A stretch of DNA of 64,000 nt, from sequence record MH494197.1; one strand, 5' to 3'. This stretch comes from Escherichia phage CMSTMSU. Below are positions 908-63,418 of the stretch, piece after piece (the stretch's first letter is position 1; each line of letters begins with the position of its first letter). The translations under genes and the position numbers were made by a program. A model generated the notes under the pieces. That model searched no databases. It was not told the DNA's origin and saw only the letters and a list, made by a program, of their open reading frames with translations.

Positions 908-1453
908 CTAATCATTGAGTAGTGAATAATAGGCATAAACATCGCCATAAAACCATGCGTGTAATTTTAATTGCAGCATGTTATCAGAGATGAATACTGA
1001 AATTGGTCGTTTGAAGAACCACATCAGAAAGTAGAATCCAGCACTAAGAATATAGTACATAGTACTAACTTTCATATACCACGGCAGTAAGTGTAAAAAT
1101 ATTCCATCATTCCTCCGGTATCTTGTTTCGAAGTTCAATCATAACACAACAAAGTTTAATGGCCAAGTAAAAACTACACATATCATACCCAATGTACCGT
1201 AAACTGCGGAGAATGCTGGCAGTACCTTTCCTGTGAGTGTTGCTACAATACATGCTATCAATGTTGATGCAAACAACGATTGATTAATGAAAGAATTCAT
1301 AAAATCTTCACCATTACGCTTATAGAATTGTCGTTTAAAATACCATCCTAGAAACATAACTACCCAAAATGTTACATAACCTGTTAGAATAATCCCTGCA
1401 ATTGAATGTGCAACAGAACTACTCTTTAAAAACTCAAGATAAGCTTCAATCAT
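908..1453 (-). CDS. integral membrane protein with in-frame TGA at 1139-1141
   Basis: ORFs 1139..1453 and 908..1138 share one frame, separated only by TGA; GGAGA RBS before ATG at 1453; second part starts with TTG and has no RBS. Confidence 0.45.
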
Positions 1454-1456
1454 TAG

Positions 1457-1775
1457 AAATCTCCACGAATTTTTGCTCTACCATTAATGATGAGATTAAA
1501 CAAGTATATCAGCACCCAAATTAGTAATCCAAGGAATACAATATATTGTGATATTGAGTTCAAGTGAGGATTAGCACAATAAATTAAGTGTGCGATAAGA
1601 CCAACAATTGCAAACATACCTTGGATAATAGTGAAAAGAAGTAGTGAAATGTTTCCATCAGGATACAGTTTGAAAACGATTTTCTTTTTAAAATACCATA
1701 GTACTACAACTAGTGCATGATAAAAGAAAAACCAAACAGATAAATCAAAGTAATACTAAGCATTGTATCTGAATT
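1457..1775 (-). CDS. membrane protein, frame-disrupted near N-terminus
   Basis: hand translation: ~105 hydrophobic codons ending TAA that overlaps next ATG; initiating ATG lies in another frame. Confidence 0.3.
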
Positions 1776-1856
1776 AAAAACTCAAGCATATCGTATCTCC
1801 GGTGGTGAATATTAAGTTATAGTACTACACTATGGTAGTACTGTCAATACATGTAA

Positions 1857-2626
1857 TTAAATTTTCTCAAGGAACATGTTTTCTGCCATTGACTCCCAAT
1901 CATATGGAAATTTATTATACAGACCAGCGATCAGTACTGGCATACGCAGAGAAGGTGAACGCAGCTTTTCTTCGTTGTTCAGCATCCAGTTTAAGATAGC
2001 TTTACAACCATTTTTATTAACCCCATTGTTCTCAAGAATATTAGTCTTGTTCATGATGTTCTCAATGTGAATCATAACTTCTTCGTTAGTGAACAGTTGA
2101 AGATCAACAAAGATACTACGAGTAATCAGTGCATCAATGTGTGGTGCTAAACTGCTTTTACCTTTAGCAATCTGTGACAGGTTTTGTTCGTCAGGAAGAT
2201 TACCTTCCCACGGAATTCAAACTGCTTAGGAATACCCTGCTGTTCCGTACTTCCCAGAAGTTGCATAAGATACAACCCGCTTCTCTGACGTGTCCAACAC
2301 GGCTTTAAGTAAATCAATATTGGTTTCATCACTGAAGATATCAACGTCATCAAGTAACAGTACTGATGCGGCATGACGTGAACGATACAGTGCTTCGTAC
2401 AGACCCATAGTGGTTACTTTACCGCTGATCTTTTGTAGTCGATTTCAAAGTTATCATCAGCTTTCTGCAAACGCTGGTCAACGTTGTAAGTTTTTCCAAC
2501 ACCACCTTTACCAGATACAATCAGGGAATTGATTGAATTAGCTTGGGTATCAAGTAAACATTCCAAAGCTGCCATCATGCTGTTGAAGTTCTTTTCGATT
2601 TGGATTGCTTTCTCTGTACGGGTCAT
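1857..2626 (-). CDS. P-loop NTPase (AAA-type ATPase), frame-disrupted
   Basis: Walker A SGKGGVGKT, Walker B LLLDDVD, sensor-like VIFLTN; spread over ORFs 2414..2773, 2226..2408, 2147..2374, 1857..2075; true start MTRTEK near 2626. Confidence 0.6.
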
Positions 2627-2654
2627 GTCTTTATCCTCTTGAGTTGATGAAATG

Positions 2655-2690
2655 ATTATAGCAAAAGGGCTGACTAGTGTCAACCCTTTT
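2655..2690 (-). promoter_or_regulatory. hairpin-embedded sigma-70 promoter (terminator-promoter cassette)
   Basis: minus strand GGGTTGACacTAGTCAGCCCTTTTGCTATAAT, then GAGGA RBS and ATG of ATPase gene. Confidence 0.6.
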
Positions 2691-2813
2691 GTTTTAGATA
2701 ATTTGTACTTCATCATAGATCTTGCACGATTTGCTTTCCGGGTTATTTGTAAATTTATACCTAGTGGAATCAAGAATTATTTTAAATCTTCTTTCACATA
2801 GTACTCATATAAT

Positions 2814-3011
2814 TTAATTACTTTTGTATATTGAATCACATTGTCTACGCAATAGTTTATAGTATGCTTTACCACGAGGAAATAGTTTACGTGTATGTTC
2901 TCCTTTTCCCCACGGTCCTAAATATGTTTTACGCGTGTCGTGATTATTAAAGTTATTTGATACAGTTGATTTTGTACCAATCGGATCTTCCTTACTAAAA
3001 TAGATAGACAT
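2814..3011 (-). CDS. hypothetical protein
   Basis: 65-aa ORF, basic. Confidence 0.35.
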   Translation of the reverse strand: MSIYFSKEDPIGTKSTVSNNFNNHDTRKTYLGPWGKGEHTRKLFPRGKAYYKLLRRQCDSIYKSN

Positions 3012-3039
3012 TATAAAGTTCTCTCTTCACTAAGTTTTT

Positions 3040-3746
3040 GTATTAAACTATTTCGGTAGCTCCATACTTAAAGTAAATTTCCTTAATCATTTCAAGATTA
3101 TGGATGCTTGTAGTTTCAGACCAACCATCCTCCATCAATTCACGTTCAATAATACCTTTCGTATTATGGATTTTAATATTTTCAGTTTGAAACAGTTTCT
3201 TACATTCAGTTTCGGCAGCAATACAATCAACTGGATTTTCAAATTTAAAAGAGCTAATACGTTTTATATCATAATAACATTTTAAGTTTTGTTCATATTC
3301 ACGACGACCGAGGATTGTTTCAATTCCATATTTTAGCCCAATATATTCACCTGCATTACATATACCACTAATATATGCAATTTTTGATTGCGATGTGCCT
3401 TACGAGGATTGCCACATCCACGCAAATGTATAGATGGTGTTTGCCAGAATTCATCACCACTTTCTGGATCAATAATACACACATTAGTACGGGCATCAAT
3501 ATACTCTACTTTACTGTAATCATATTGTTCATCGTGAATTTCGTTAGCCCTGTTGATAAATTCATCAATTGACATTTTATTTTTCAGGCCAGTTGATATA
3601 TTAGCACGATCATTATTACCACATCCCATCAAATGTGATGATGGTGTTTGCCAGAATTCACCATATACTGGATCTATAATACATACCTTAGTACTGTTGT
3701 TTACGTATACGACCTTACTATAATCATACAGATTATCATGCACCAA
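3040..3746 (-). CDS. repeat-module protein (two YDYSKV...C-I-I-D-P-x-x-G-E-F-W-Q-T-P modules), frame-disrupted near 3330
   Basis: ORF 3333..3746 holds two ~60-aa internal repeats; reading continues in another frame to ~3040. Confidence 0.5.
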
Positions 3747-4615
3747 ATTGGCCTTCTCGATAAATTCATCAAGTGTTAAGCGTTTACTCTGTGCCGTTTT
3801 TCAAAACCACGGATTGGGTTTCCATGACCTTTCCAATGGTAGATTGGTTCTTGCCAGAATTCACCATATACTGGATCTACAATACATACCTTAGTCCATG
3901 CACCAGTATACTCCACTTTACTGTAGTCATATAAATGACCATGTACTGCACGAGAACGTTCAATAAAACTTCGTTGGTGAATGTTTTATTTACTGAAGTT
4001 CCTATACGCCCACGTTCCATGTTACCATGCTTGGATTTTAAATGGTCATATGGCGTTTGCCAGAATTCACCATACACTGGATCAATAATGCATACTGGAG
4101 TTTTACTATTAACATATTCTACGTTTGAATAATCGAACGTATTTCCAAAACGTTCGATAGCTTCAGCTATAAATGTTTCAGTTGTTTTTGATTTAAGTTT
4201 TTACCATTTTCAATGGCACGTTGTGGGCTACCTGCACCTTTTAAATGGGAGCTGGGTTCTTGCCAGAATTCACCATACACTGGATCAATAATACATACCT
4301 TAGTGCTATTATTTTTATAAACAACTTTACTATAATCATAGAGGTTGTTATGAACTTTTTCTGCTCGTTCTATAAACGTTTGGGTGGTTAATTTGCCAAC
4401 ACCTGAACGATATGGATTCCTGACCGCGAATGTGATGTGACGGAGTTTGCCAGAATTCACCATACACCGGATCAATAATGCATACTGGTTCTTTAGCTTT
4501 TACATACACTGCTTTTTCGTAATTATAGAGATCACCATGTACATTTCGTGCAGCAATTAAAAAGTTTCTTGGTCGGTAACACGCATTTTCTTTATCCCTA
4601 GTACGTTTCATTTCG
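3330..4615 (-). repeat. tandem array of at least 5 copies of a ~40-codon coding module
   Basis: motif YDYSKVVY..KVCIIDPVYGEFWQTPSSHL.G.G recurs in ORFs 3333..3746 (x2), 3877..4077, 4167..4475, 4348..4611 in different frames. Confidence 0.6.
4167..4611 (-). CDS. repeat-module paralogue(s), two overlapping frames
   Basis: ORFs 4167..4475 and 4348..4611 each carry one module; RBS and ATG at 4611. Confidence 0.4.
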
Positions 4616-4621
4616 ATAGAG

Positions 4622-4656
4622 CTATAATAGCAAAGGGCTGACCGAAGTCAACTCTT
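4622..4656 (-). promoter_or_regulatory. degenerate hairpin-promoter cassette
   Basis: TTGACTTCGGTCAGCCCTTTGCTATTATAG upstream of ATG at 4611. Confidence 0.45.
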
Positions 4657-4863
4657 TGATATGATAATATAATCATTCCATAAATTATATATATTGTTTT
4701 CAACACAATCATCATCGCTTAATTCTATAATTGACGAGATAAGTTCTGATAAGGTTTGTGTGTTCAAAACCGTATCACGATGTCTCAACCACCATTTCAT
4801 GGTGAGTGTTCGGATTTTGTACGGATTGTTTGAAAACTTGTATCTAGAAGTGTCAAGTATCAT
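4648..4863 (-). CDS. hypothetical protein
   Basis: 71-aa ORF. Confidence 0.35.
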   Translation of the reverse strand: MILDTSRYKFSNNPYKIRTLTMKWWLRHRDTVLNTQTLSELISSIIELSDDDCVENNIYNLWNDYIIISKS

Positions 4864-4875
4864 TTTAATCTCTAT

Positions 4876-5310
4876 TTACTTAATCATCTCGGTATAGTAC
4901 TCAGGTAACTCAACATCAGTAAATTTATACCACTTAGGCTTCATTTGGAGCTTCTCAATCAAGCGTTCACGAGACATTTTAATCTCTGAATCAGATGGTA
5001 CATAGTCCGCAAAACTCCGCAGGAAGCCGCTAATGTCGTTTAATTCAATGTTTTGAATCTTCATACCACGACGCAAACATTCGTTAACAATTTCAATATG
5101 ACGCTTCTGTAAGTACAATAACTTGTTGTAGAAGAATGTTACATGACCTGAACCTAACAGGTAAGTACTGTTAATTTTGAAATCACGTACACGCTTACGT
5201 GCTTGAACATGTTTTTGTACAGCACCAAATACACGTGGAAGTTCACGATATTCAGCCATCAGATGTTGGTCAGCAAGTTCTTTAACGTGTACTAAGTTAA
5301 TGCGGGTCAT
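4876..5310 (-). CDS. denV: pyrimidine dimer DNA glycosylase / endonuclease V
   Basis: [31 protein letters not shown]... closely matches T4 endonuclease V as recalled from memory; ATG at 5310 after GAGGATGAA RBS (track ORF starts at TTG 5367 and reads through the promoter hairpin). Confidence 0.85.
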
Positions 5311-5337
5311 GTATTCATCCTCTCGTCTTGATGAAAT

Positions 5338-5374
5338 AATTATAGCAAAAGGGCTGACCGAAGTCAACCCGTTT
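5338..5374 (-). promoter_or_regulatory. hairpin-embedded sigma-70 promoter
   Basis: GGGTTGACTTCGGTCAGCCCTTTTGCTATAAT: -35 TTGACT, 17-bp spacer, -10 TATAAT, UUCG tetraloop hairpin. Confidence 0.65.
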
Positions 5375-5720
5375 TGAAAGGATTTTTAATGGTTTTCGTA
5401 CTGTATGTATTTTGCTTTGTAGTTCTTCTTCCCACAAAACATTTATATTATAAACTAAATCATTGTAGTCACTGTTCACAAAGATAAAATCATACTTCTC
5501 ATTAAAAGTATGAGAAATCAATTTCATTTTCATAAGTATTATTGAACTTTTAAATTTATATGTTTCTTTTTCTTCTCCAGTTTTTGAACTTTGTATATTT
5601 TTATAAATTCCATGAATTCATCATTGGTCATTGTTTCAGCATCCAACAATACCCAACTTCACAATCTCATACCCGTCCAGATATCCGTAGGAACACTCAG
5701 GTGTTTCATAAGATGAACCA

Positions 5721-5972
5721 TCATAGATGCCCGCATTGGCTTTTGGAATTCTCAAGCAATCGTTGCAGTACTGATACGTCATCAAGAACGTAATACAAGT
5801 TAGCATATAAATCCGTTACAATACAGTACTCCAACATGTCAAATGTATCAATCGAAATTTCAACCTTAGCAAATCGTTTCTTTTCTTTATTATACAATGC
5901 GTACATATTAATCTCCATAATCAAGTTTAACCAACTTACCACACAGATACCCAAAGTTTTCTGGCTTCGCAT
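5721..5972 (-). CDS. hypothetical protein
   Basis: 83-aa ORF. Confidence 0.4.
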   Translation of the reverse strand: MRSQKTLGICVVSWLNLIMEINMYALYNKEKKRFAKVEISIDTFDMLEYCIVTDLYANLYYVLDDVSVLQRLLENSKSQCGHL

Positions 5973-6011
5973 CTGAATAGAAGAAGTCAGTACTCAACTC
6001 TGAATCCAATG

Positions 6012-6323
6012 CTAAAGCACACAACTCCACCCAAAATAAACCCTATGTTGTACTGGCTTACAACGTTTCTGTACAGTTACTAGTCCAGTACATGATGACC
6101 ACAACGTAGGGCAGATACCACTATCACTACGCTTGGAGTACTGCATCCAAGAACGTTCATTGAGGTTAGCTATCATCCCTGTTAAGAATAGCTTCCAACT
6201 TTTAAAGGTTGGAATCTTGATAGCATATTCCCCAATGAGTATGACAGTTCGTGTTGCACCTTTCAAATCTATATTCATATTTTTAATTAGAAGAACACAA
6301 ACCAAGTCCAGAATAAATTCCAC
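6012..6323 (-). CDS. hypothetical protein
   Basis: 103-aa ORF. Confidence 0.4.
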   Translation of the reverse strand: MEFILDLVCVLLIKNMNIDLKGATRTVILIGEYAIKIPTFKSWKLFLTGMIANLNERSWMQYSKRSDSGICPTLWSSCTGLVTVQKRCKPVQHRVYFGWSCVL

Positions 6324-6538
6324 ACTACAAATAAAGACATAGTGGTTTTATGTACAATATCAGCAGTACTGGTCCATCCTCCACCGTGTCCTATTCCATT
6401 TATGAATAGAACTAAGAACAAGATACCATTTACTACAATAGTACATAGTAAGTACACAAACACATTCCATGCAAGTTCAGGAGATACTAACGTAAATGGT
6501 AAAACAATTAGTAGTATTAGAACTAATAAAATTTTCAT
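6287..6538 (-). CDS. small membrane protein
   Basis: 83-aa hydrophobic ORF. Confidence 0.4.
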   Translation of the reverse strand: MKILLVLILLIVLPFTLVSPELAWNVFVYLLCTIVVNGILFLVLFINGIGHGGGWTSTADIVHKTTMSLFVVWNLFWTWFVFF

Positions 6539-6569
6539 TTATCGCCTCACTTAATTAACGTGACAATTA

Positions 6570-6746
6570 GTACGAATCAGATTCCCAGTACTCGATTGCT
6601 TCTTTCAGCAATTCTTTAGCACGTTGTTTTGCAATGCGAGCGGGTAACAGATATGTGTACATTAACTGACGCTTCACTTCATTCAGTGAAAGCTGTTCAT
6701 GGTACAGTGCATCCATCAGTCGATTACGAGTACGTAGTTTCATATA
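6570..6746 (-). CDS. small basic protein (58 aa)
   Basis: hand translation MKLRTRNRLMDALYHEQLS...; below track size cutoff. Confidence 0.35.
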
Positions 6747-6754
6747 AGTTATCC

Positions 6755-7309
6755 TTATTTCAAAGAATCATAGTAAGCAGTGTCAAAGATTGGAGTCATA
6801 ATAACATAGTCAATACGGTCAATGTAAGTTGAACTCCACATTTCTGGTTTGTCATAAAATTGACGCTCGCGTTCATTCATACGAGTCAGTACTTCTTCCA
6901 ATTTACTACGTGAAGCCATCAATGTATTACGCGATCCATAAGTGAAGTACTCAGTCCATTGATATTCATATTCAGTACTGATAGATTGAATAGTACCATC
7001 TTTGAAATGAGCTAAGGCATATCCTTTCTCTACAAAGTTATCAGGTGGAAGAACACCATCTGGATTAGTTTTCAATGCTTTGGTTAACTTTTCTTTAATT
7101 TCAGTTAACGTGCATACTGAACGAATGTTCTTCAGGTTTGATACTTGAAAATCACTGTACTTTCCAAAGAAAAATACACGCCAATCTTTAGGTTCATTAT
7201 CAGATACGGTAATATTCGGATGATGGGCGAGTAAACGAAGAAGGCCAGCTTTGTGACCGTTAATGTAGATCTCATGGATGTGGTTAGCAGTTTTCTTAAA
7301 AGTAATCAT
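6755..7309 (-). CDS. hypothetical protein (184 aa)
   Basis: long intact ORF; GAGGAA RBS; preceded by consensus promoter. Confidence 0.7.
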   Translation of the reverse strand: MITFKKTANHIHEIYINGHKAGLLRLLAHHPNITVSDNEPKDWRVFFFGKYSDFQVSNLKNIRSVCTLTEIKEKLTKALKTNPDGVLPPDNFVEKGYALAHFKDGTIQSISTEYEYQWTEYFTYGSRNTLMASRSKLEEVLTRMNERERQFYDKPEMWSSTYIDRIDYVIMTPIFDTAYYDSLK

Positions 7310-7354
7310 GACAATTCCTCGATTGTGGGGATGAGAAGTTCATCCCTTGATAAA

Positions 7355-7381
7355 CATTATACAGTACTGAATGAGTTTGTC
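7355..7381 (-). promoter_or_regulatory. sigma-70 promoter, TTGACA-N16-TATAAT with CAGTACTG in spacer
   Basis: minus strand TTGACAaactcattcagtactgTATAATg. Confidence 0.65.
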
Positions 7382-7384
7382 AAC

Positions 7385-7762
7385 TCAAAATAAATTCATT
7401 TCATGTGCGTATTGTGGTTCAAGATGCGATAAGTTTTTGAAGCTTTCTTTCAACTCAGCATCATCTACATACACCGTGCGTACATTCCCCATAGTGAAAC
7501 CTACCCACACAGTCATGTCACCAGTCCCTAAGCGTGGCATTGATAGCGAACCATCAGGTGAAACATCAAACGCTACACTGAAGTCATCAGTAACAACGTC
7601 TGAACCATTTTCGAGAATAATACATCCACTATCTTTAAGCTTCTGAATGTGGATAGCAGCCTCTACAGCACGTTTGAAGTTATAGTAAGACTCTTTATCC
7701 TCAAACATTGATTGTTTAATCAGACGCTTGTTTAGCTCGGTTACTTTGTGCATTTGACGCAT
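7385..7762 (-). CDS. hypothetical protein (125 aa)
   Basis: intact ORF. Confidence 0.6.
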   Translation of the reverse strand: MRQMHKVTELNKRLIKQSMFEDKESYYNFKRAVEAAIHIQKLKDSGCIILENGSDVVTDDFSVAFDVSPDGSLSMPRLGTGDMTVWVGFTMGNVRTVYVDDAELKESFKNLSHLEPQYAHEMNLF

Positions 7763-7792
7763 TACTTATCCATCTCCCACAGTTGTAGAATT

Positions 7793-8017
7793 TCATAAGA
7801 GCCGGTGGTGCTGGATTCCTGATCTCAGGAATTGAGTACTTTTAGGATTACCACCAGCATTAAATTCGTCAAGTAATGATTCCAGTTCGCGACGATCCTG
7901 AACAACATAAACACAATCACCTGAACCTTCTTCGAGAATCATTTCACTTCCTGCACAATCCCATACTGTTGAGATACATAGAATCTCTTTTGTATTTTTA
8001 TTACGCAATGCAAACAT
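7793..8017 (-). CDS. hypothetical protein
   Basis: 74-aa ORF. Confidence 0.45.
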   Translation of the reverse strand: MFALRNKNTKEILCISTVWDCAGSEMILEEGSGDCVYVVQDRRELESLLDEFNAGGNPKSTQFLRSGIQHHRLL

Positions 8018-8025
8018 AGTAATCC

Positions 8026-8229
8026 CTATCGATTTGGCATTTTATCTCGTAATTTCACAAGATAATCAATCACGGTACATCCTGAAATAAAGGTAATATA
8101 AGTACTGAAAAATCCTACCAGAATAAAGGCAACAAGCGTACTCCCATTTGGTTCTTCAGCTTTAATACCAATGATACCATCAGATGCAGTGAAAAATGTA
8201 GACATAAACGTTAGACAGATGTACATCAC
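8026..8229 (-). CDS. small membrane protein
   Basis: 67-aa hydrophobic ORF. Confidence 0.4.
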   Translation of the reverse strand: MMYICLTFMSTFFTASDGIIGIKAEEPNGSTLVAFILVGFFSTYITFISGCTVIDYLVKLRDKMPNR

Positions 8230-8369
8230 TAATAAGAATTCATGTTCTAATGACGGATAAAACGGTCAAAAGTTTATAAAATTTAAAGTACAGTAGGAGT
8301 ATACCAACAAAGGCATAGAAAGTAAACAGTGTTGTTATGATATATGATATTAAATTTAAATTATACATC

Positions 8370-8660
8370 TCAACGCTCCGGTAGATTATCACGTAATGTT
8401 TTGATTCGATTATACAATTTCATTGCTACATTCCCAAATAAACCAGAACCCATTACTAAAATGTATGCGATGATCATAGTAATAATTACAATAGTACCTA
8501 GACTGTAATGTACTGCACTGATACCCATTATTGTTTCTACAATGATGTGAGCAACAGAAATCACCAAAAGTACTACTACAATTGGATGATTTGGATACAT
8601 TCGGTTAAACAATGTTTTGTACTTAAAGAAGTACAGTACTCCACCAAATAAGAAGTACAC
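8370..8660 (-). CDS. membrane protein
   Basis: 96-aa hydrophobic ORF. Confidence 0.45.
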   Translation of the reverse strand: MYFLFGGVLYFFKYKTLFNRMYPNHPIVVVLLVISVAHIIVETIMGISAVHYSLGTIVIITMIIAYILVMGSGLFGNVAMKLYNRIKTLRDNLPER

Positions 8661-8719
8661 AATGTAGATTGATGCAACGGCATAAGCAAACGCATTAGTG
8701 TAAAAATCATTATCAATCC

Positions 8720-8983
8720 TTACTTTTCAGGGATTTTATTACGCCACTCATCGATGCGATGAAGCAGTTTAAAGAGCAAAAATATTGGAACTGTAGCTAT
8801 CATAGTAGCAATTGTTAGTAATGTCAACACCGATACGAGATTTAATTCGTCCGTACTATATCCACATACCAGTGCTTCAATTATCCCCACGTACATGCAC
8901 AGAACATCAAAATGAAATTGGTGCATCGTAGTATATGCGTTGATACAAGGTCGTGTATCGGAAGAATGCAATAATGTAACCAA
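8720..8983 (-). CDS. membrane protein
   Basis: 87-aa hydrophobic ORF. Confidence 0.45.
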   Translation of the reverse strand: MVTLLHSSDTRPCINAYTTMHQFHFDVLCMYVGIIEALVCGYSTDELNLVSVLTLLTIATMIATVPIFLLFKLLHRIDEWRNKIPEK

Positions 8984-12649: not shown

Positions 12650-12657
12650 GATATCCC

Positions 12658-55139: not shown

Positions 55140-55687
55140 TTATTTATCATTTAATTCTTTTAATTGAGCTTGTATATCACCAGAAAGTTTACGGATTTTC
55201 TTGAAACAGTAAACACTATCATCAAGTTCAAGTTCTAGGCCGTGTGTGATTGCATAAAGCATTTCAGCAAGTACTAGATCCTGACGCATCCAGTTACCAT
55301 TCTTATAGGTTGTCATTACACAATAAGGACAGTGGCTGTTTCCGGTTTGTTTACCGAACACAGATTGGATTGTATCATGCTTGAAACCCACAAAGATTGG
55401 TTGATCTTGTTGATTTCAGCTACTACGTCCATTTGTGCACCAGTGTTGATTGCAAACACTTGGTCACCGTTCTCGGTTTTGTTAATGTTTAGTTCAATAT
55501 CACTACCAAGTTTACGAACAGCCAATGTATAAAGTAGGATTTCATACATATCATAATTGGTTGTTTCGCCATTTGGTGCAGTTACATCGAGACTAACACC
55601 ATGCATTTTAACTTCAGTACTGAATCCATCTTTATCTGCTAGAAAATCAGTGATTTGTTCAGTTAGGATTTTAATTTGGTCAATCAT
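55140..55687 (-). CDS. hypothetical protein (~180 aa), two frames
   Basis: ORFs 55316..55687 and 55140..55391 overlap with a frame change; contains SHCPYC. Confidence 0.45.
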
Positions 55688-55711
55688 TATTCATATCCTT
55701 ATGTTGGAAAA

Positions 55712-55735
55712 GCCCCCATTACGGAGGCTTTTGTT
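55712..55735 (-). terminator. rho-independent terminator
   Basis: hairpin AAAGCCTCC/GGGGGCTTT with flanking T-run. Confidence 0.45.
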
Positions 55736-55742
55736 AATCTAA

Positions 55743-56170
55743 TTATAGGGAAGCTTCGTATTCAGCTACAATGTCAACCATCTCATTGACAAAGTTGATG
55801 TGGTCATGAGTTACAGTACGGAAATCATAAACCAGTGATTGTTGGAAGAATACGTCTTCAGCCAGATTACCTTCAAAGTTCAGGTCGATGTTTTCTTCAT
55901 CGTTGGTTGGAGCAACTTTGATATTTAGTTGATTTTCATCAACGACCAATTTCACTACACAACCCAATGCAATCGCCAGTACATAGGCAGGTTTCTTAGC
56001 TGCTTCAGAACGGAATGGAGCACGTAGTGCAAATGGTGCTGCTAATCTCATCATTCAGTTCTTTATATTTAACGTTAATCATCAGTTCTTCAATTTTGAC
56101 GCTCTCGATTACACGACCAGTTTCAGCAGCGAAGAAAGAGTGGTTACGGATAGTTTGTTCGATATTCATG
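55743..56170 (-). CDS. FQxS-motif family protein, frame-disrupted N-terminus
   Basis: motif LAEDVFFQQSLVYDF in ORF 55743..56054; N-terminal MNIEQTIRNHSFFAAETG... in adjacent frame. Confidence 0.45.
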
Positions 56171-56362
56171 TGTTATTCCTTATATAGATTGCTAAAGTTA
56201 CGAAGATTACGGTTTGCTTTAAACTGTTTTAAATCACCAAATCTATCATCAACGATAAAAGTGGCAGCCTGTTTTGATTGGCATATTGTACAAATCAACA
56301 TACCCTGTATTGTATACTCGGTTGAACAATTTGTACAGTACTTTTTTCATAAAGTTCAGTAC

Positions 56363-56698
56363 TCATAAAACCTTCACATCAGTACGTTTATCTCTTTCTT
56401 CTTTCTTTACCTCATCGGAGCGGGTATCTTCTAATTGTAACACAACTTCTTTCAGAATGTCAACATCAATCATTGCTTCTTTGTATTGAAAGTCGTTTAC
56501 GCCGAAAATATACTTCAATGCAACCCATACACGTTTGTACCATTTTAAGAAAGGATTCAAACGCATACTCACCAGACATTGACCAAGTTTATCATCTCCA
56601 TGTTCTTGTGTCAAGTCAAATTGTGAAATGTGAACACAATGTTCCGTATTATCGCCACAACTACAACGTACTATAAATTCTTTGCTGTCTTTGCTCAT
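56363..56698 (-). CDS. hypothetical protein
   Basis: 111-aa ORF. Confidence 0.5.
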   Translation of the reverse strand: MSKDSKEFIVRCSCGDNTEHCVHISQFDLTQEHGDDKLGQCLVSMRLNPFLKWYKRVWVALKYIFGVNDFQYKEAMIDVDILKEVVLQLEDTRSDEVKKEERDKRTDVKVL

Positions 56699-56833
56699 AC
56701 TGGATAAGCCTTCATAAATTGTTTTAGAACTCCAAACTTAGAAGCACTGTAATCATACTGATAACTTAGCTCACGTTTATCATTCATTCGATAAACCATA
56801 TGATTGTTTGGATAACCTATTCTAACAGGTTTG

Positions 56834-57127
56834 TTAGGATTTGCAAAAAATTGCCCATTCTTTTACAGGAAAAACGTTTTCAGATAACATCTTCACATCT
56901 TTACTGTAATACTTCATTGCTTGGGTACAGTGCTTGTAATCTTCTGCACTCAGTTCTTCACACACAACACTGTGCGTTTCAGTACTGGATACCCATGACT
57001 CTTCTTCATAATATAAGTCAATTACATCTTCTACTGTATAGCTATCAGGTAAATCATAATATACCCAATTACTAAAACCAGAGCTTACACCAACTCGAAT
57101 TCGATAGTACTTCATATTTTTTATCAT
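56834..57127 (-). CDS. hypothetical protein
   Basis: 97-aa ORF. Confidence 0.5.
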   Translation of the reverse strand: MIKNMKYYRIRVGVSSGFSNWVYYDLPDSYTVEDVIDLYYEEESWVSSTETHSVVCEELSAEDYKHCTQAMKYYSKDVKMLSENVFPVKEWAIFCKS

Positions 57128-57348
57128 CCGATTTTACATAATAGTAACATACAATGCAGTGAATTACAAGAAGAATAATTTCTACTACATTCAGTGCCAC
57201 AACATGCCCTTGTGGGACCGTAAGTGACAATAACAACATTATAGTAGGTATTACGAATATTGTCCATGTTTTTTCATTTTATTTCCTTAATGTAGGCAAA
57301 TGGTAAAAATACAACCTCTACACGGAAATGCAGTTGCGAGTGCATCAA

Positions 57349-57765
57349 CTATAGATTTGTTTTATTACATTGCCATACTTTTGTAACTTTGTGTTGGAAT
57401 ACCTTGCCATCTTTTACTAACCAATACATTTGCATTTTAACAGTACAGTTATCAGATGGTATTAGTAAATCTTCCATATCATATGAATTAAAGATTCTCT
57501 CGTTCATATAATCTCCTAGTGAAAAAGCCAGATTCTTTCTTATATATTCGGCGACACAATCAGTAGTTTGTGTATTTGTGAATGCAACAACTTCATTCGA
57601 TACACCATTCCCATTACACAATGGACAAATCCCCATATACTTAGGTGTTGGAACTGTATCTAGTTTATATTTCCCTGAAGATATCATGTATTGTTGTGGT
57701 AATACATCCAAAGAAATAATATAATCTTCATCGAATTGCTTACAACATACCCAACATTTACTCAT
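57349..57765 (-). CDS. Cys-rich putative zinc-binding protein
   Basis: 138-aa ORF with CWVCC and CPLC motifs. Confidence 0.5.
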   Translation of the reverse strand: MSKCWVCCKQFDEDYIISLDVLPQQYMISSGKYKLDTVPTPKYMGICPLCNGNGVSNEVVAFTNTQTTDCVAEYIRKNLAFSLGDYMNERIFNSYDMEDLLIPSDNCTVKMQMYWLVKDGKVFQHKVTKVWQCNKTNL

Positions 57766-57961
57766 TGTGGTTCTCCTTCAAAACAATTCTTATATCTTCG
57801 AATGTTTTAACAAACCAGTCATGTTCATCAGATACATCAACCACCTTCCCACCATAAACATAGTAATGATAGAAGGGTAACTTACTTTTCCTCAATCGTT
57901 CAGCAAGTTCTGGGTTTTGAAATATCTTAGCACATATTGCATCCGGATACGAGAAATGCAT
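57758..57961 (-). CDS. hypothetical protein
   Basis: 67-aa ORF. Confidence 0.4.
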   Translation of the reverse strand: MHFSYPDAICAKIFQNPELAERLRKSKLPFYHYYVYGGKVVDVSDEHDWFVKTFEDIRIVLKENHNE

Positions 57962-58237
57962 TCGGGTGTCATTTCAATACGGTCGTGCATATACTTGTTC
58001 GCCGCTGCTTTGCAGCAGCACCGACACTTTTCTAAGATCATCATGTTTCTGGCCTGTTAAAACCAAAAATAAAAAGTTTCTACCGATGGGAACCAACCGT
58101 AGGGTTCTAAGGTAAAACTATGTGACGAAAAGTTAGATAGATCCCTACCTAACTTAGTTTTAGCTTTACTATAGATATTAATGTGTCTGTATCCGTCATC
58201 AGTAGGGTCAATATAGTTAAATGACTCTTCAGGAAAT

Positions 58238-58597
58238 TCAAACATAATTACTCTTCTTCACCAGATGGTGTACCACGTAGTTTATCAAAATCAACCCAAA
58301 TGCCATGCTGGTTTTGAAGCGACATTTCTCATAGTACCAGCTATAGTCTGTTTCAACACCGGAAATTGAACGAACACTACAGTCATACATATTGTATAAA
58401 TGTGTACGTACAATGAATGTTCCGATAAGAAGAACAAACACAACAATACCAGTACAGATCTTTGGATGATCCATAATTAGGTCCAACACAGAACTGGTTT
58501 CAGTACTATCCATTTTACTACGACCGATGGCAACAAATTTCAGTACTGCTAATGATACCAGTAATGAAATAACAAGAACACTCAAATAAATTAGCAT
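58238..58597 (-). CDS. membrane protein
   Basis: 119-aa ORF with several hydrophobic segments. Confidence 0.5.
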   Translation of the reverse strand: MLIYLSVLVISLLVSLAVLKFVAIGRSKMDSTETSSVLDLIMDHPKICTGIVVFVLLIGTFIVRTHLYNMYDCSVRSISGVETDYSWYYEKCRFKTSMAFGLILINYVVHHLVKKSNYV

Positions 58598-59163
58598 ATT
58601 TAGACTCCTACACCAAAACGTAAAAGGATGTTATTAACAAACACAAAATCAAATGGAGACTTTGGTTCAGATACCGAGTACTGAAAAGTTTCAGTGGCAA
58701 AATTTTCCCTATTATGCCATGTTGATGAATCGATTAGTAATTGTTTATCACCAATTGACGTTGAATGTAATGGGACGTGTGCTGATGAATTTATGGAATA
58801 CGCATTTAGTTTTCCTTGTTCATCAAATGTAACACAAAGGTAATATCTCTTCTCAACATCAGGGAACGCTCTTTAATATACGAATATATTGATTCATTCA
58901 AATCATCATCATCCCTTGTCTTAGAACCGAGAACTTGAGCAAAAGACAAATGACGTTTAGGTTGGATCGTTCCGGTCTTTTAGAATGAATTCTTTGGTTA
59001 AGTAAAAGTTATTGTGTTTTACCTCAATATTAACAGTTTTGAAGTTTGTGATTTTATCATATACGTTCCTAAAACTGTTATATCCCATGTACTAATTTCC
59101 TGCATCGTTGCAGTAACTAGTTCTTCTAGTTCTTGGATAAATGGCAAATCGTCTTGATTAAAT

Positions 59164-59718
59164 CTAATCACAGTTTTCATATACCTTTTTCAAATTCATG
59201 ATTTCAAGAAGACTATATTCTTTTTCACTAATCAAATCTTCAGTGAGTGCTTCTGGTTCGGTGTTACAATACAACTTCCCATTAATGATAACATAACCAT
59301 TGCTAAGATACAACGCACTCATTATCTGTTGGCCTTCTTTAGCATTGACTGCTATACCAGCATTTGTTACAACAAGCCCATTGTTTGCAAATGCTGATGT
59401 TAGTTCTGACCATTCAACTGATATTAAATCACGATAGTCTTTTGATACTTTTATATTAACAATACAAGCAACTCTTGTAATAGATGGAGTACTAATCGTA
59501 TACATCTGTGGGTGTTGGTAGTTTGAGTTATATGTTTGTGGTGTATTAACAGCAGTTCCTGAATTCGGAGTTGTTGGCATAATTACTTGATCCATATTTG
59601 GAACAGCCGTTCTTAGTGATGCAATACGCCCAGTTTCATCCAATTTCAAAACTAAACGATGAGTTTTATCCTCAGAGTGATACGGGAATAGACCACCGGA
59701 ATTCATATTTTGAAGCAT
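59164..59718 (-). CDS. hypothetical protein (184 aa)
   Basis: long intact ORF. Confidence 0.6.
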   Translation of the reverse strand: MLQNMNSGGLFPYHSEDKTHRLVLKLDETGRIASLRTAVPNMDQVIMPTTPNSGTAVNTPQTYNSNYQHPQMYTISTPSITRVACIVNIKVSKDYRDLISVEWSELTSAFANNGLVVTNAGIAVNAKEGQQIMSALYLSNGYVIINGKLYCNTEPEALTEDLISEKEYSLLEIMNLKKVYENCD

Positions 59719-59797
59719 TTTAATTAATTCATAAGTATTTTTAAAAACATAATAAATCCTATAGAAAATGGGAGTACAATGTACTCCCAGATTTAGA

Positions 59798-60350
59798 TTA
59801 TAGTTTAATTACTTCTTGGATACCAGTATCCATTGCTTTCTTAGTGCGTGTATCAGAAACTACTGTACATAAATGTTCAATATTTTCACTTGGGAATGTG
59901 TTAGTATCAAGAATTTTGGAGTTCCAGAAACCTTTACGGAACTTAGCATAATCAGTACACTGGTCAATTTTCATTTTCTGAAGATTGTTGAACTGTGTAC
60001 GTCCCGACTCGATAGTTACCATAAGTTCTTGATAAATCTTAGGATCGAGATTAGGAACCTGTTGTTGAATCTGTGACATCACAAACTTCTGGTCAACACC
60101 TTCACGACCTTTAAAGTATGTTTCGATGGTTTCTTTCAATGCATCCTTATACTTATCAGAAACTTGTACTTTTTCTTGAATGACAAGAGTGTATTTACTT
60201 AGTTGACTTTCTGATGCATCATAGTACTTTTAATATTACCTTCAAATTCAACAGCACGGTCATGTGCATCTACATACATACTAACTGAACCAATTGCCAT
60301 AAGACCGAATACAACAACAACACCAATCAATGCAATAATTTTACCATTCA
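59798..60350 (-). CDS. N-terminally membrane-anchored protein, frame-disrupted
   Basis: hand translation MNGKIIALIGVVVVFGLMAIGSV... (TM anchor) continues into ORF 59798..60139. Confidence 0.4.
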
Positions 60351-60656
60351 TAACTTGTTATCCCTCATATAAAGGCCAATGAAAATAGATACAATCAGTA
60401 ATAAAATAGAAGCACCGATGAGAACATCTTTACGTGGTTCCATTTTTACAGACAAGTACTCGAACTCTTTATTAGAGAGTCTTTCAAACTTTGTGTCAAT
60501 ATTATGCACTTCTTTTCTCAACAAGTCAAGAGTTAATTTTTCATTTAATGCATCCATTCGCATCTTAGCATGTAGTTCTTCGTTCTTCATGCCTTGTGCA
60601 AAGGAAGTGCTATCAAATTTAACAATCTTCCCATCATTATCAATTCCAAAGAACAT
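60348..60656 (-). CDS. C-terminally membrane-anchored coiled-coil protein
   Basis: 102-aa ORF ending in hydrophobic LIGASILLLIVSIFIGLY. Confidence 0.5.
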   Translation of the reverse strand: MFFGIDNDGKIVKFDSTSFAQGMKNEELHAKMRMDALNEKLTLDLLRKEVHNIDTKFERLSNKEFEYLSVKMEPRKDVLIGASILLLIVSIFIGLYMRDNKL

Positions 60657-60712
60657 AATAACATCATTCTTCTTACCACCACGCCACGAAGCGAGTGTTG
60701 CCTCAACAAAAT

Positions 60713-60934
60713 CTACGTTTTATAATCATAAACCAAAACTTGGATGTTGACTTGTTTACGTGCACCCATAGTTTTTAGTTCTTCACGCAGATACTCATCA
60801 TAACCATCTACATTATAATTAGTAGTGTTGATTACATGGTGTGTTTTATAATAGTCTACCACACTTGGGTATTCTGGTAAAGTACTAAGATATTTCTCAT
60901 CATACATTTCATGTAATTCATCAGGACTGAACAA
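60713..60934 (-). CDS. hypothetical protein
   Basis: 73-aa ORF. Confidence 0.4.
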   Translation of the reverse strand: MFSPDELHEMYDEKYLSTLPEYPSVVDYYKTHHVINTTNYNVDGYDEYLREELKTMGARKQVNIQVLVYDYKT

Positions 60935-61075
60935 TGAGTTTTATCAGCGAACAGATAGTTAATATAAGAACTTTCTGCGGCAGCATAATCCCCAATGTTA
61001 ACCTGTTGCCAGCGTGGAGGGTCATTGTACCCTGACGGTTTACTCGCTCAATCTCAAACTTCCCTACAGTACTTT

Positions 61076-61438
61076 TTACATACCAGTCAACTTCGTATGA
61101 ATAATCAAATACCTTATAGGACTCACATTCACGATGGGATTTCCCTTACTATCATAACGAGTTCTGCATTTCTCGTGCCACGTGTAATGCTTACATGAGC
61201 TTGATTGTGTACAAAACTCCTTGTGATTATATTTGGATGTTACCTGCCCATTTAGAATCTCTACATCGTACAATTGACTGTAGTTGATTGCATATGAGAT
61301 ACCAAGCACAAGAGCAGCACCAACTATACAACAACCAATATGAATCAACAGTTCTTTAGTACTGATATGCTTATCATACATGTATTTCATAACAAATACA
61401 ACGATAAGTGAAGGAATCAACAGAATAATAAAATTCAT
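61076..61438 (-). CDS. membrane-anchored Cys-rich protein
   Basis: N-terminal TM segment; start overlaps upstream stop. Confidence 0.5.
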   Translation of the reverse strand: MNFIILLIPSLIVVFVMKYMYDKHISTKELLIHIGCCIVGAALVLGISYAINYSQLYDVEILNGQVTSKYNHKEFCTQSSSCKHYTWHEKCRTRYDSKGNPIVNVSPIRYLIIHTKLTGM

Positions 61439-62130
61439 GTATTAGTCCAGTTTAAGTTTATTGAGACAATAGGAGATTTGGATAGCTTCACGTGCTGCAT
61501 CATACAGGGGTGATGTAATTCCAAACCATTAATACCACATTTTTCTACATACTTCACGAATTTAGCTAACTGCACTGACACAATCTCATCCATTTCGGTG
61601 CGAGCTTCTTCATTCAATAAACGCTTCAGGGTTCGTGCGTTTTCAGGAGCATCATATTTCCACAAATCACCAACATTCAATAGTTTTAAGTGATTAGCTT
61701 GTAAAATACTACAGTCGAAGTTACATCCATTTCCCCAAATTGAATGTTCAACCTCTTTACCATAACAATCAAAACGGATATCTTTCCAGAAATCGACAAT
61801 ACCATTAGAAGTAAAGATTTGTTTGGATTTACCATTAGGACCGTACAATTCTGGTGCAACTAGTGCCATAGTACTGGCAACTTCAGCATATGCATTAGGA
61901 TATTCCTTCTGACATGTATTCATCCAGAAATCCATTGCACCTGCATCTGATTTCAGCCCAGCGTTGACTTGTGCTTGGTATGGTAACTTAACATATACAA
62001 ATTGTCTGATATCATGTTCAGGTTTACTTGGAACAACTACTGCTGCATAATTTGGAATAATAATATCATAACCAGAGTTTTCAGGAGTACCGAGAGCTTC
62101 AATATCAACACTAACATGACGGCGTTTCAT
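61435..62130 (-). CDS. putative 3'-5' exonuclease (DnaQ-like DEDD superfamily)
   Basis: 231-aa intact ORF; VDIEALG (Exo I-like D-x-E) and GNGCNFDCSIL (Exo II-like). Confidence 0.5.
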   Translation of the reverse strand: MKRRHVSVDIEALGTPENSGYDIIIPNYAAVVVPSKPEHDIRQFVYVKLPYQAQVNAGLKSDAGAMDFWMNTCQKEYPNAYAEVASTMALVAPELYGPNGKSKQIFTSNGIVDFWKDIRFDCYGKEVEHSIWGNGCNFDCSILQANHLKLLNVGDLWKYDAPENARTLKRLLNEEARTEMDEIVSVQLAKFVKYVEKCGINGLELHHPCMMQHVKLSKSPIVSINLNWTNT

Positions 62131-62207
62131 ATTTCGTTCCTTATCTGTATATTAAAAGAGTGCGTTTCAATAAGAACATTATATTGAAAACGCACTCTTG
62201 TCAACTA

Positions 62208-63418
62208 TTACTTGTTAGCTTTTTCAGCAATTTCACGAAGAGTATCTTCAAGTTCATGAGAGAGTTTTGCGATTTCAATCTTAGCTCGCTCACGCTCTTC
62301 TTTACCTTTCTTCTCTTCAATCAGTACTGCTTCGATGCTATCGATCATTGTTTTGTGTACATTACGCAATGTTTTAATATCCACGATACCACGATTATTT
62401 GCTTTAGCAGCATCCAACATGTTAGTTGCTACCATTTTAGAGTTTACTTCGAGTAAACGGTTAGTTTCATTGTCAATCAGATTACCCAACTCATTGTCTT
62501 TACGTTGACGTTCGGAAATCAACTGTTCAGCCAATTGTGATTTCCATGCTGGAATAACAACTGATTTCAAATCCTCAAACTTAGAAACAGTGTTGAGGTT
62601 TACTTTCTTCATACTCATCAGGCGAGGACCGCTCAGTTCACACATCATGATAAGACGACGAATCTTATCTTCCTGCTTAGATAGAGCTTCACAAATCATC
62701 TTTTGCTCGGATTGCAAAAGAATCAACGTCAGGGTTCGCTTGCATTGCTACCAATTCAGCATCTTGTGCTTTGGTAACTTCTTCCAACTCAACTAACGTA
62801 TCACGTAGTTCAAAGAGATAGTTTTGTTTTCGTTGTAAGCAGTGTCTAGCCATGCACATTCCCATGCTGGCGGTTAATACCAACCTGAAGAGTGTTCATG
62901 ATTTCATCAATTTGTTCTTTACTGTTTTTGTACTGATCGCCAACTTTCTGTTTAGCATTAACAAAAGTTTTTGACCCAGCCTACGATTGATTTATCATCC
63001 TGTAGACTATCAATATCAACTGCACGAGTCAATGTCAAGATAGTAGTAATAGACTTACCGAATTCGGTATTATCATCAGTTACGTTAACTTTTGACATGA
63101 TTTCATCAGCCAAACGTCCAACACCTGCCCCAGCAGTGGTTCCGATGGTATTAATATTCTGCACAGTTAAAGCCATACTGTTGCCTTTAGTATCTTTCAG
63201 TACTGGAAGTGACTTGGACTGTTGTTCGAAGATATCAGTTGCGTCAATTGTGTGTGCTGCTGTTTTGGTAGTACGTTTGGCAGTTTTGGTTGCTTTGGCT
63301 TGTTTAACTGTTGCTTTTTCGGATTGATTTCTTTCTCGGACATTGTGTATTCCTCAGTTAATTTAAGATAGTGTTGCTCAGTGATAAACATTCTACAGGC
63401 AACACTCAGTACTGTCAA
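62208..63418 (-). CDS. PspA/TelA-like coiled-coil protein, fragmented over four frames
   Basis: ORFs 63197..63418, 62958..63176, 62689..62883, 62208..62726 abut or overlap serially; charged helical sequence DTLVELEEVTKAQDAELVAMQ. Confidence 0.4.

What the first reader, a model, noticed from the sequence alone, without database searches (positions are those of the whole stretch)
1139..63418. Pervasive frame disruptions and one in-frame TGA
At least a dozen genes are split across frames: ATPase 1857-2626, sigma factor 24518-25480, methyltransferase 50940-51798, PspA/TelA-like 62208-63418, HNH 22887-23428, and loci at 47533-48117 and 55140-55687. The membrane protein at 908-1453 has an in-frame TGA at 1139-1141. 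Genes such as denV, the 318-aa ORF and the exonuclease are intact, so the density is roughly one break per several hundred bp. Indel sequencing error is the simplest explanation; decay of an accessory region or programmed recoding are alternatives. The TGA could be a nonsense mutation or a readthrough site.
Basis: seen in the sequence. Interest (0 to 1): 0.5.

Follow-up and report, generated by a model that had tools for sequence, protein, structure and literature searches.

The report
Nanopore-type sequencing errors, not broken genes
The many "broken" genes in this jumbo E. coli phage sequence are best explained as a sequencing artefact: bases are missing at the two kinds of site where unpolished Oxford Nanopore assemblies typically lose them, so this is not gene decay or recoding.

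Summary
The window comes from an Asteriusvirus-type jumbo E. coli phage (121Q/PBECO4 group). It is 97.5-99% identical to WPEC3, Ecwhy_1, fEgEco12, WPEC5, EC.P1 and BF17, whose genes are intact.

Base-by-base alignment shows 249 small differences private to the window:
- All are deletions of 1-4 nt. There are no insertions in well-aligned sequence.
- Mean spacing is 254 nt, and they are spread evenly over the 64 kb.
- 179 shorten homopolymers. The chance of shortening rises with run length: 0.1% at 1-2 nt, 5% at 4, 31% at 5, 85% at 6 and 100% at 7-8.
- 34-35 sit on CCWGG (Dcm) motifs. The window has no CCWGG at all, against 0.5-0.7 per kb in relatives. All 26 conserved sites are corrupted, while control motifs are 93-96% intact.

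About 73% of genes are frameshifted, far more than "a dozen".

The TGA at 1139-1141 is a premature stop caused by an A6 to A5 deletion. It lies near the junction of two separate genes, not inside one gene.

This is the published Oxford Nanopore consensus error profile (homopolymers plus Dcm motifs). It is an artefact of low interest.

The parts
1..64000 (.). Window-wide set of 249 small window-private deletions (206 of 1 nt, 32 of 2 nt, 9 of 3 nt, 2 of 4 nt; 305 nt missing in all). There are no insertions in well-aligned sequence. Classes: 179 in homopolymers of 3 nt or more, 34 at CCWGG, 12 beside runs of 4 nt or more, 24 other.
   Evidence: MAFFT alignments to three relatives per segment plus WPEC3 for 1800-4900. 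Density is 11-23 events per 4-kb bin throughout.
775..1453 (-). Deletions lie after 949 (2 nt), 1094 (A6 to A5) and 1168 (A6 to A5).
   Evidence: Relatives annotate 336-nt and 348-nt CDSs with a 1-nt stop/start overlap.
1139..1141 (-). TGA. This is a premature stop reached out of frame after the deletion at 1168. It is not an in-frame stop inside a single gene and not a readthrough site.
   Evidence: Frame tracing.
1857..2626 (-). ATP-binding protein gene, split. Deletions after 2181 (T5 to T4), 2246 (2 nt in CCAGG) and 2430 (T5 to T4). Repair gives 257 aa, the WPEC3 CDS length.
   Evidence: Only a weak AAA_16 match, below the Pfam cut-off.
3043..4586 (-). Endonuclease gene broken into at least four ORFs by six deletions (after 3380, 3796, 3964, 4197, 4418, 4558). 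Repair gives 516 aa, the WPEC3 CDS length.
4876..5310 (-). denV (endonuclease V). It looks intact but carries two compensating deletions: 2 nt in a CCTGG after 5007 and 1 nt of GGG after 5021. The protein reads [10 protein letters not shown] where WPEC3 has GFPAEFCQDYV.
10509..12013 (-). Virion structural protein, 503 aa after repair. Six deletions: after 10511, 10691, 10722, 10887, 11887 and 11984 (CCTGG).
22636..23428 (-). HNH endonuclease gene, split. Deletions after 22936 and 23198. Repair gives 264 aa, the reference length.
24518..25480 (-). Sigma-factor gene split into four ORFs. Deletions after 24767, 25114 and 25342. Repair gives 321 aa with Sigma70 regions 2 and 3.
30217..31373 (+). 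Plus-strand virion structural protein gene, also split (90 aa plus 274 aa) by a deletion after 30480. Repair gives 385 aa, the reference length. This shows that both strands are affected.
47533..48117 (-). Hypothetical gene, split. Deletions after 47709 (2 nt in CCTGG) and 47962 (A5 to A4). Repair gives a 195-aa ORF measured from the first possible start codon. The matching relatives' CDS is annotated at 573 nt (190 aa) from a later start.
   Evidence: (CDS at L001 3759-4331).
50940..51797 (-). C5-cytosine DNA methyltransferase gene, split. Deletions after 51141 (GGG), 51278 (GGGG) and 51768 (A5). Repair gives 286 aa, the reference length.
   Evidence: PF00145, 3.4e-35.
55140..55687 (-). Hypothetical gene, split. 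Deletions after 55355 (3 nt in CCAGG) and 55391 (A4 to A3). Repair gives 183 aa, the reference length.
61442..62130 (-). DnaQ-like exonuclease. One 1-nt deletion after 61507 alters the C-terminus (231 aa in the window, 229 aa after repair).
62208..63418 (-). TelA-like gene split into four ORFs. Deletions after 62708 (2 nt in CCTGG), 62821, 62860, 62967 and 63314. Repair gives the full 380-aa TelA protein.
   Evidence: PF05816, profile positions 14-331 of 332.

Best explanation
The window is a consensus sequence of a normal, functional Asteriusvirus-type jumbo coliphage. It appears to have been assembled from native-DNA Oxford Nanopore reads (R9-era basecalling) without effective short-read or methylation-aware polishing.

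Two systematic basecalling errors survive in such a consensus:
1. Homopolymer runs are under-called by one base, increasingly so as the run gets longer.
2. 5-methylcytosine at Dcm sites (CCWGG) distorts the current signal, and 1-3 bases of the motif are dropped.

Each lost base shifts the reading frame, so ORF callers and human readers see genes split across frames. The TGA at 1139-1141 is one such downstream consequence. The phage's genes are not broken in reality.

Shown here: the pattern of differences and the fact that repair restores the ORFs. Inferred: the sequencing platform and the methylation, since no reads are available.
For: 1. **Identity of the window.** It is 97.5-99% identical to six independently sequenced phages from Finland, Thailand, China and Poland (countries as given in the records fetched), all with intact, tightly packed genes.
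2. **Direction of change.** There are 249 private small deletions and 0 insertions. A two-sided binomial test gives p = 2e-75.
3. **Dependence on run length.** Runs conserved in three relatives are shortened in the window at the rates below, and are never lengthened.

| Run length in relatives | Shortened in window |
|---|---|
| 1-2 nt | 0.1% |
| 3 nt | 0.8% |
| 4 nt | 4.6% (G/C 4-mers about 43%, A/T 4-mers about 1%) |
| 5 nt | 31% |
| 6 nt | 85% |
| 7-8 nt | 100% |

   - A and T runs behave alike (31% against 32% at length 5), so the effect is strand-symmetric.
   - The window has 15 runs of length 6 where about 81 are expected, and 2 runs of length 7 or more where about 19 are expected.
4. 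**CCWGG.**
   - There are 0 sites in 64 kb, against 11-18 per 20-31 kb locus in nine reference loci.
   - All 26 sites conserved in the relatives are altered, 24 of them by deletion. Control motifs GGWCC, GATC, CTWAG, GCWGC, ACWGT and CAWTG are 94-96% intact, and the single CCSGG site is intact.
5. **Unbiased scan.** A 4-6-mer scan recovers only these two classes.
6. **Repair.** Re-inserting the reference bases restores reference-length ORFs at every locus tested. Coding density rises from 0.77 to 0.90 and median ORF length from 82 to 115 aa. The repaired proteins match Pfam families (TelA almost end to end).
7. **No sign of selection.** 38 of 249 events are intergenic although only about 10% of the DNA is intergenic. 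The density is even (11-23 per 4 kb). Sigma factor and structural genes are hit.
8. **Control genome.** TH47, which is more divergent from the references than the window is, has only 4 small private deletions in the same 20 kb, against 86 in the window.
9. **Literature.** Wick, Judd and Holt 2019 (PMC6591954) report that ONT consensus errors on native Enterobacteriaceae DNA are dominated by Dcm-motif (CCAGG/CCTGG) errors and then by homopolymer-length errors.
Against: - No reads, quality values or record metadata are available, so the platform is inferred from the error spectrum alone.
- The exact source record was not found. It is not in IMG/VR, and no phage record in the collection is identical.
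- 24 of the 249 deletions (about 10%) fall in neither class. Three homopolymer differences (after 45567, 48478 and 63422) are shared with TH47; the first and last lie between ORFs, so these are probably real polymorphisms. A small minority of the events may therefore be genuine.
- 'Repair' uses the relatives' bases, so it cannot by itself prove the true sequence of this isolate.
Confidence: 0.96

Rival explanations
1. Genuine pseudogenisation: an accessory region of the phage genome is decaying through real frameshift mutations.
For: Many of the genes are small hypothetical accessory genes. Homopolymers are natural slippage hot-spots. Three homopolymer length differences are shared with phage TH47 and look real.
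Against: - Real slippage yields both gains and losses. Here the count is 249 losses and 0 gains.
- Every one of about 34 CCWGG sites is destroyed by a deletion, while control motifs are untouched. No mutational process is known to do this.
- 73% of genes are hit, including the sigma factor, virion structural proteins and all genes of 250 aa or more, at uniform density over 64 kb. A phage in that state would not be viable, yet the rest of the sequence is 98-99% identical to viable phages.
- Coding sequence is hit as often as intergenic sequence.
Confidence: 0.01
2. Programmed recoding: ribosomal frameshifting at the breaks and readthrough or reassignment of the TGA at 1139-1141.
For: Homopolymeric A/T runs can act as slippery sequences. 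Phages do use programmed frameshifts in a few genes, such as tail chaperones.
Against: - Relatives at 98-99% identity encode the same proteins in a single frame at every site, so no recoding signal is conserved.
- Up to six shifts per gene would be needed.
- Events occur equally in intergenic DNA.
- The TGA is reached only because of a 1-nt deletion 30 nt upstream. The real stop of that gene is 30 nt further on, overlapping the next gene's ATG.
- TGA is used as an ordinary stop elsewhere in the window, so there is no code reassignment.
Confidence: 0.005
3. Sequencing artefact from a different platform: flow-based homopolymer errors (454 or Ion Torrent) or poorly corrected PacBio CLR, rather than Nanopore.
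For: Flow-based chemistries also mis-size homopolymers in a length-dependent way (own knowledge).
Against: - Those platforms sequence amplified DNA, or in the case of PacBio show no Dcm-linked deletion bias, so they cannot explain the 100% loss of CCWGG sites.
- Flow-based errors include over-calls as well as under-calls, and PacBio CLR errors are insertion-rich (own knowledge). Here there are no insertions at all.
- The combination of Dcm-motif and homopolymer errors is the one described for ONT (PMC6591954).
Confidence: 0.025

Closest known systems
Oxford Nanopore consensus error profile on native enterobacterial DNA (Wick, Judd and Holt 2019, Genome Biol 20:129, PMC6591954)
   Same: The same two dominant residual error classes appear: errors at the Dcm motif CCAGG/CCTGG and wrong homopolymer lengths. 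They persist in the assembly consensus. The overall error level is of the order of a few tenths of a percent; here 305 bases are missing from about 64.3 kb, or 0.47%.
   Different: That paper benchmarked a Klebsiella chromosome against a reference built from the same isolate. Here the 'truth' is inferred from 97.5-99% relatives and no reads are available. In this window the CCWGG errors are almost all deletions (24 of 26). I did not check how that paper splits Dcm-site errors between deletions and substitutions.
Asteriusvirus jumbo coliphages (121Q, PBECO4, Ecwhy_1, WPEC3, fEgEco12)
   Same: Same gene order, 84-99% nucleotide identity, the same tRNA block and the same small minus-strand gene arrays.
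   Different: Those records have uninterrupted ORFs, 0.5-0.7 CCWGG per kb and a normal homopolymer spectrum. The window has none of these.
Programmed -1/+1 ribosomal frameshifting in phage genes (for example the tail assembly chaperone G/GT)
   Same: Adjacent ORFs in different frames encode parts of one protein, sometimes at A/T-rich runs.
   Different: Programmed sites are conserved among relatives, occur once per genome region and sit at defined slippery heptamers. Here the relatives have no shift, about 107 genes are affected, and intergenic DNA is affected too.

Membership tests
Oxford Nanopore (R9-era) unpolished consensus artefact | Indel errors strongly biased towards deletions | tested here: met
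   249 deletions against 0 insertions in well-aligned sequence.
Oxford Nanopore (R9-era) unpolished consensus artefact | Homopolymer under-calling that rises steeply with run length and is the same on both strands | tested here: met
   Shortening rates are 0.1%, 0.8%, 4.6%, 31%, 85% and 100% for runs of 1-2, 3, 4, 5, 6 and 7-8 nt. A5 is shortened at 31% and T5 at 32%.
Oxford Nanopore (R9-era) unpolished consensus artefact | Systematic errors at Dcm-methylated CCWGG motifs | tested here: met
   All 26 conserved sites are corrupted and the window has 0 CCWGG. Control motifs are 93-96% intact. The k-mer scan finds no other motif.
Oxford Nanopore (R9-era) unpolished consensus artefact | Errors independent of coding status, strand and gene function | tested here: met
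   15% of events fall in the 10% of DNA that is intergenic. Plus-strand and minus-strand genes are both hit. Density is even per 4 kb.
Oxford Nanopore (R9-era) unpolished consensus artefact | Read-level or metadata proof of the platform, and disappearance of the errors on polishing | not testable with these tools
   No reads or record metadata are available. The source record was not found.
Genuine pseudogenes or decaying region | Disruptions of mixed type (insertions, deletions, nonsense substitutions), concentrated in dispensable genes, with relaxed substitution patterns | tested here: not met
   Only deletions are seen, at two sequence contexts. Sigma factor and structural genes are hit, and all genes of 250 aa or more are hit.
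Programmed ribosomal frameshift or stop-codon readthrough | The frameshift or stop is conserved at the same position in related genomes | tested here: not met
   Relatives have single-frame ORFs at all sites. The TGA at 1139-1141 is out of frame in the relatives.

The most novel reading that the evidence does not exclude
The error footprint may double as a methylation map. Every CCWGG in 64 kb is miscalled, which suggests the packaged phage DNA is essentially fully C5-methylated at CCWGG. The phage encodes its own 286-aa C5-cytosine methyltransferase (50940-51797). That enzyme, rather than host Dcm, might install the protective Dcm-like methylation, for example against EcoRII-type restriction. 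Nothing here separates the phage enzyme from host Dcm. The reading that the frameshifts themselves are biological has a probability below 0.02.
Probability: 0.3. Interest if true: 0.2.

Novelty: not a real feature. Interest (0 to 1): 0.04.

Why it matters
This matters only for data hygiene.
- Gene calls, protein clusters and 'pseudogene' or 'recoding' inferences drawn from this sequence would be wrong for roughly three quarters of its genes.
- About 35 apparent CCWGG losses could be misread as restriction-site avoidance.
- The sequence should be polished or flagged before any comparative use.
- The two-signature test used here is a quick, read-free way to recognise such assemblies. It asks for deletion-only changes, homopolymer length dependence and total CCWGG loss relative to close relatives.
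- A minor by-product is indirect evidence that the virion DNA carries 5mC at CCWGG.

Tried and rejected
- **Three-reference alignment for 1880-4650.** The window carries a different allele there, only about 70% identical to Ecwhy_1, WPEC5 and BF17. The MAFFT events in that stretch were spurious and no repair was made. A dedicated search found WPEC3 at 99%, and the analysis was redone against it.
- **Search for the source record.** An exact-match scan of IMG/VR, using a 34-mer that spans a CCWGG deletion, found nothing. No phage record matches the window end to end at more than 99% identity.
- **Is TH47 equally error-ridden?** TH47 is an unannotated, 'UNVERIFIED' record. It is not: it has 12 CCWGG sites, a normal homopolymer spectrum and only 4 small private deletions. 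It served instead as a negative control.
- **A Dam (GATC) error signature.** None was found. 83 of 88 sites are intact, like the controls.
- **A third systematically corrupted motif**, which might point to another methyltransferase. None was found.
- **Natural CCWGG avoidance.** Rejected. Relatives carry the motif at the frequency I estimate from base composition, about 0.6 per kb. In the window the motif is lost through frame-breaking deletions.


Full report
**What the window is.** The 64-kb window has about 35% GC, and almost all genes lie on the minus strand. Megablast against the phage collection places it among the Asteriusvirus-type jumbo coliphages (121Q/PBECO4 group).
- Ecwhy_1, fEgEco12, WPEC3, WPEC5, EC.P1, BF17, Turkey3 and vB_Ec-M-J match at 97.3-98.6%. 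121Q and PBECO4 match at 84-87%.
- For window 44001-64000 the matched stretches in relatives are 100-180 nt longer than the 20,000-nt query. This was the first hint that the window is missing bases.
- The annotated relatives show an uninterrupted, tightly packed array of genes. Examples are the TelA-like gene (1143 nt), the methyltransferase (861 nt), the sigma factor (966-969 nt), the HNH endonuclease (795 nt) and a structural protein (1488-1512 nt).

**Checking the observation.** I aligned the window to three relatives per segment with MAFFT. I scored the differences where the window stands alone against all three.
- Window 1880-4650 carries a different allele from those three relatives, so I used WPEC3, which is 99% identical there.
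- The result is 249 small private events, all deletions in the window: 206 of 1 nt, 32 of 2 nt, 9 of 3 nt and 2 of 4 nt, 305 nt in all.
- There are no insertions in well-aligned sequence. A binomial test gives p = 2e-75.
- Mean spacing is 254 nt. Every 4-kb bin holds 11-23 events.

**Where the deletions fall: homopolymers.** 179 events shorten a homopolymer of 3 nt or more, and 12 more abut a run of 4 nt or more. For runs conserved in all three relatives, the chance that the window's copy is shorter rises steeply with run length, as the table shows.

| Run length in relatives | Shortened in window |
|---|---|
| 1-2 nt | 0.1% |
| 3 nt | 0.8% |
| 4 nt | 4.6% (G/C 4-mers about 43%, A/T 4-mers about 1%) |
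| 5 nt | 31% |
| 6 nt | 85% |
| 7-8 nt | 100% |

- No run is ever longer in the window.
- A-runs and T-runs behave identically.
- The window has 15 runs of 6 nt and 2 of 7 nt or more, where the relatives predict about 81 and about 19.

**Where the deletions fall: CCWGG.** 34 events (35 if the denV site judged against WPEC3 is counted) remove 1-3 bases from a CCWGG motif.
- The window contains no CCWGG at all. Nine reference loci carry 0.50-0.68 per kb, which is what I estimate from base composition.
- All 26 sites conserved among the relatives are altered in the window, 24 of them by deletion.
- Control motifs (GGWCC, GATC, CTWAG, GCWGC, ACWGT, CAWTG and non-Dcm NCWGG) are 93-96% intact, and the single CCSGG site is intact.
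- An unbiased scan of all 4-, 5- and 6-mers recovers only poly-A/T, poly-G/C and CCWGG-containing words as enriched.
- The remaining 24 events (10%) are mostly single bases inside purine-rich, low-complexity stretches.

**Repair test.** Re-inserting the relatives' bases at the 249 sites restores reference-length ORFs everywhere I looked.

| Locus | Length after repair |
|---|---|
| ATP-binding protein, 1857-2626 | 257 aa |
| Endonuclease, 3043-4586 | 516 aa |
| Virion structural protein, 10509-12013 | 503 aa |
| HNH endonuclease | 264 aa |
| Sigma factor | 321 aa |
| 47533-48117 | 195 aa from the first possible start (relatives annotate 190 aa) |
| C5-methyltransferase | 286 aa |
| 55140-55687 | 183 aa |
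| TelA-like protein | 380 aa |
| Plus-strand structural gene, 30217-31373 | 385 aa |

- Coding density rises from 0.77 to 0.90, and median ORF length rises from 82 to 115 aa.
- The repaired proteins match Pfam families: PF00145 at 3e-35, Sigma70 regions 2 and 3, and TelA over profile positions 14-331 of 332.

**The TGA at 1139-1141.** Relatives have two separate genes here, of 111 and 115 aa, whose stop and start overlap by one base. In the window:
- An A6 to A5 deletion after 1168 throws the upstream gene out of frame, so it runs into TGA at 1139-1141. This is 30 nt before its true stop at 1107-1109.
- A second A6 to A5 deletion after 1094 shifts the body of the downstream gene into that same frame.
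- A 2-nt deletion after 949 ends it early.
- The apparent 'membrane protein with an in-frame TGA' is therefore a chimera of two genes created by deletions. It is neither a nonsense mutation in one gene nor a readthrough site.

- The 318-aa ORF is a fragment of the 503-aa structural protein, which has six deletions.
- denV carries a 2-nt loss in a CCTGG and a 1-nt loss in GGG fourteen bases on. Together these restore the frame but replace PAEFCQ with LRSFA.
- The exonuclease has a 1-nt loss near its 3' end.

**Explanation.** Deletion-only indels, length-dependent homopolymer compression and complete corruption of the Dcm motif together form the published consensus error profile of Oxford Nanopore basecallers on native DNA of Enterobacteriaceae.
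- Wick et al. 2019 found that Dcm-motif errors, followed by homopolymer-length errors, made up most residual assembly errors. Nanopolish corrected only about 70-80% of the Dcm errors (PMC6591954).
- The motif signal requires native, methylated DNA. From general knowledge of the platforms, this argues against flow-based sequencing of amplified DNA and against PacBio CLR, whose errors are insertion-rich.
- A control genome, TH47, is more divergent from the references than the window is. It shows only 4 small private deletions in the same 20 kb, against 86 in the window, and has normal CCWGG and homopolymer counts.
- Three homopolymer differences shared by the window and TH47 (after 45567, 48478 and 63422) are probably genuine polymorphisms; the first and last lie between ORFs. 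They show what real indels look like here: rare, and not breaking genes.

**Rivals.**
- Real gene decay is excluded for practical purposes. The reasons are the one-sided direction of change, the 100% hit rate at a methylation motif, the equal targeting of intergenic DNA, the hits in sigma-factor and virion genes, and the uniform density.
- Programmed recoding is excluded because relatives at 98-99% identity read straight through every site, and because up to six shifts per gene would be needed.

**What is not shown.** The platform and the methylation are inferred, since no reads or metadata could be consulted and the source record was not found. The repaired bases are those of the relatives, not of this isolate.

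**Verdict.** Its preferred interpretation, indel sequencing error, is supported and can be sharpened to a Nanopore-type consensus artefact. This is not a biological feature, and its interest is low. Its practical value is as a warning against using gene calls from this sequence, and as indirect evidence that the virion DNA is 5mC-methylated at CCWGG.

Noticed in passing
window 50940-51797 (minus strand), together with all about 35 former CCWGG sites: The phage encodes its own 286-aa C5-cytosine methyltransferase (PF00145). The error footprint implies that its DNA is methylated at every CCWGG site. Whether the phage enzyme or host Dcm is responsible is unknown.
   Followed up: partly
window 1880-4650: This is a mosaic segment. 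The ATP-binding protein and the 516-aa endonuclease region are 99% identical to WPEC3 only. They are about 70% identical, or unalignable, to Ecwhy_1, WPEC5 and BF17, which carry different genes there. This looks like allele or module exchange among Asteriusviruses.
   Followed up: partly
window 36697-40908 (minus strand): A block of six tRNA genes: Thr(TGT) twice in tandem, Asn(GTT), Met(CAT), Ser(GCT) and Ser(TGA). It lies in a region where relatives differ by insertions of HNH endonuclease genes and in tRNA content.
   Followed up: no
window 39737 (69 nt present only in the window); 34129/34159 and 39972 (9-nt events); 57268 (79-nt indel among relatives): These larger length differences are mostly multiples of three and are not in error-prone contexts. 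They look like genuine polymorphisms rather than artefacts.
   Followed up: no
window 45567, 48478, 63422: Three 1-nt homopolymer differences from Ecwhy_1, WPEC3 and fEgEco12 are shared with phage TH47. Those after 45567 and 63422 lie between ORFs; the alignment at 48478 is ambiguous. They are probably real, so a few of the 249 'errors' may be true variants.
   Followed up: partly
88 conserved GATC sites across the window: There are no excess errors at Dam sites (83 of 88 intact, like the control motifs). Either the basecaller coped with 6mA at GATC, or the phage DNA is not Dam-methylated.
   Followed up: no
L001/L004 (MH791411.1 Ecwhy_1) and L011 (MT446416.1 TH47): Both public relatives are flagged 'UNVERIFIED' in GenBank, and TH47 has no annotation. 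In the compared 20 kb, however, TH47 has normal CCWGG and homopolymer counts and few private indels, and Ecwhy_1 has normal CCWGG and homopolymer counts.
   Followed up: partly
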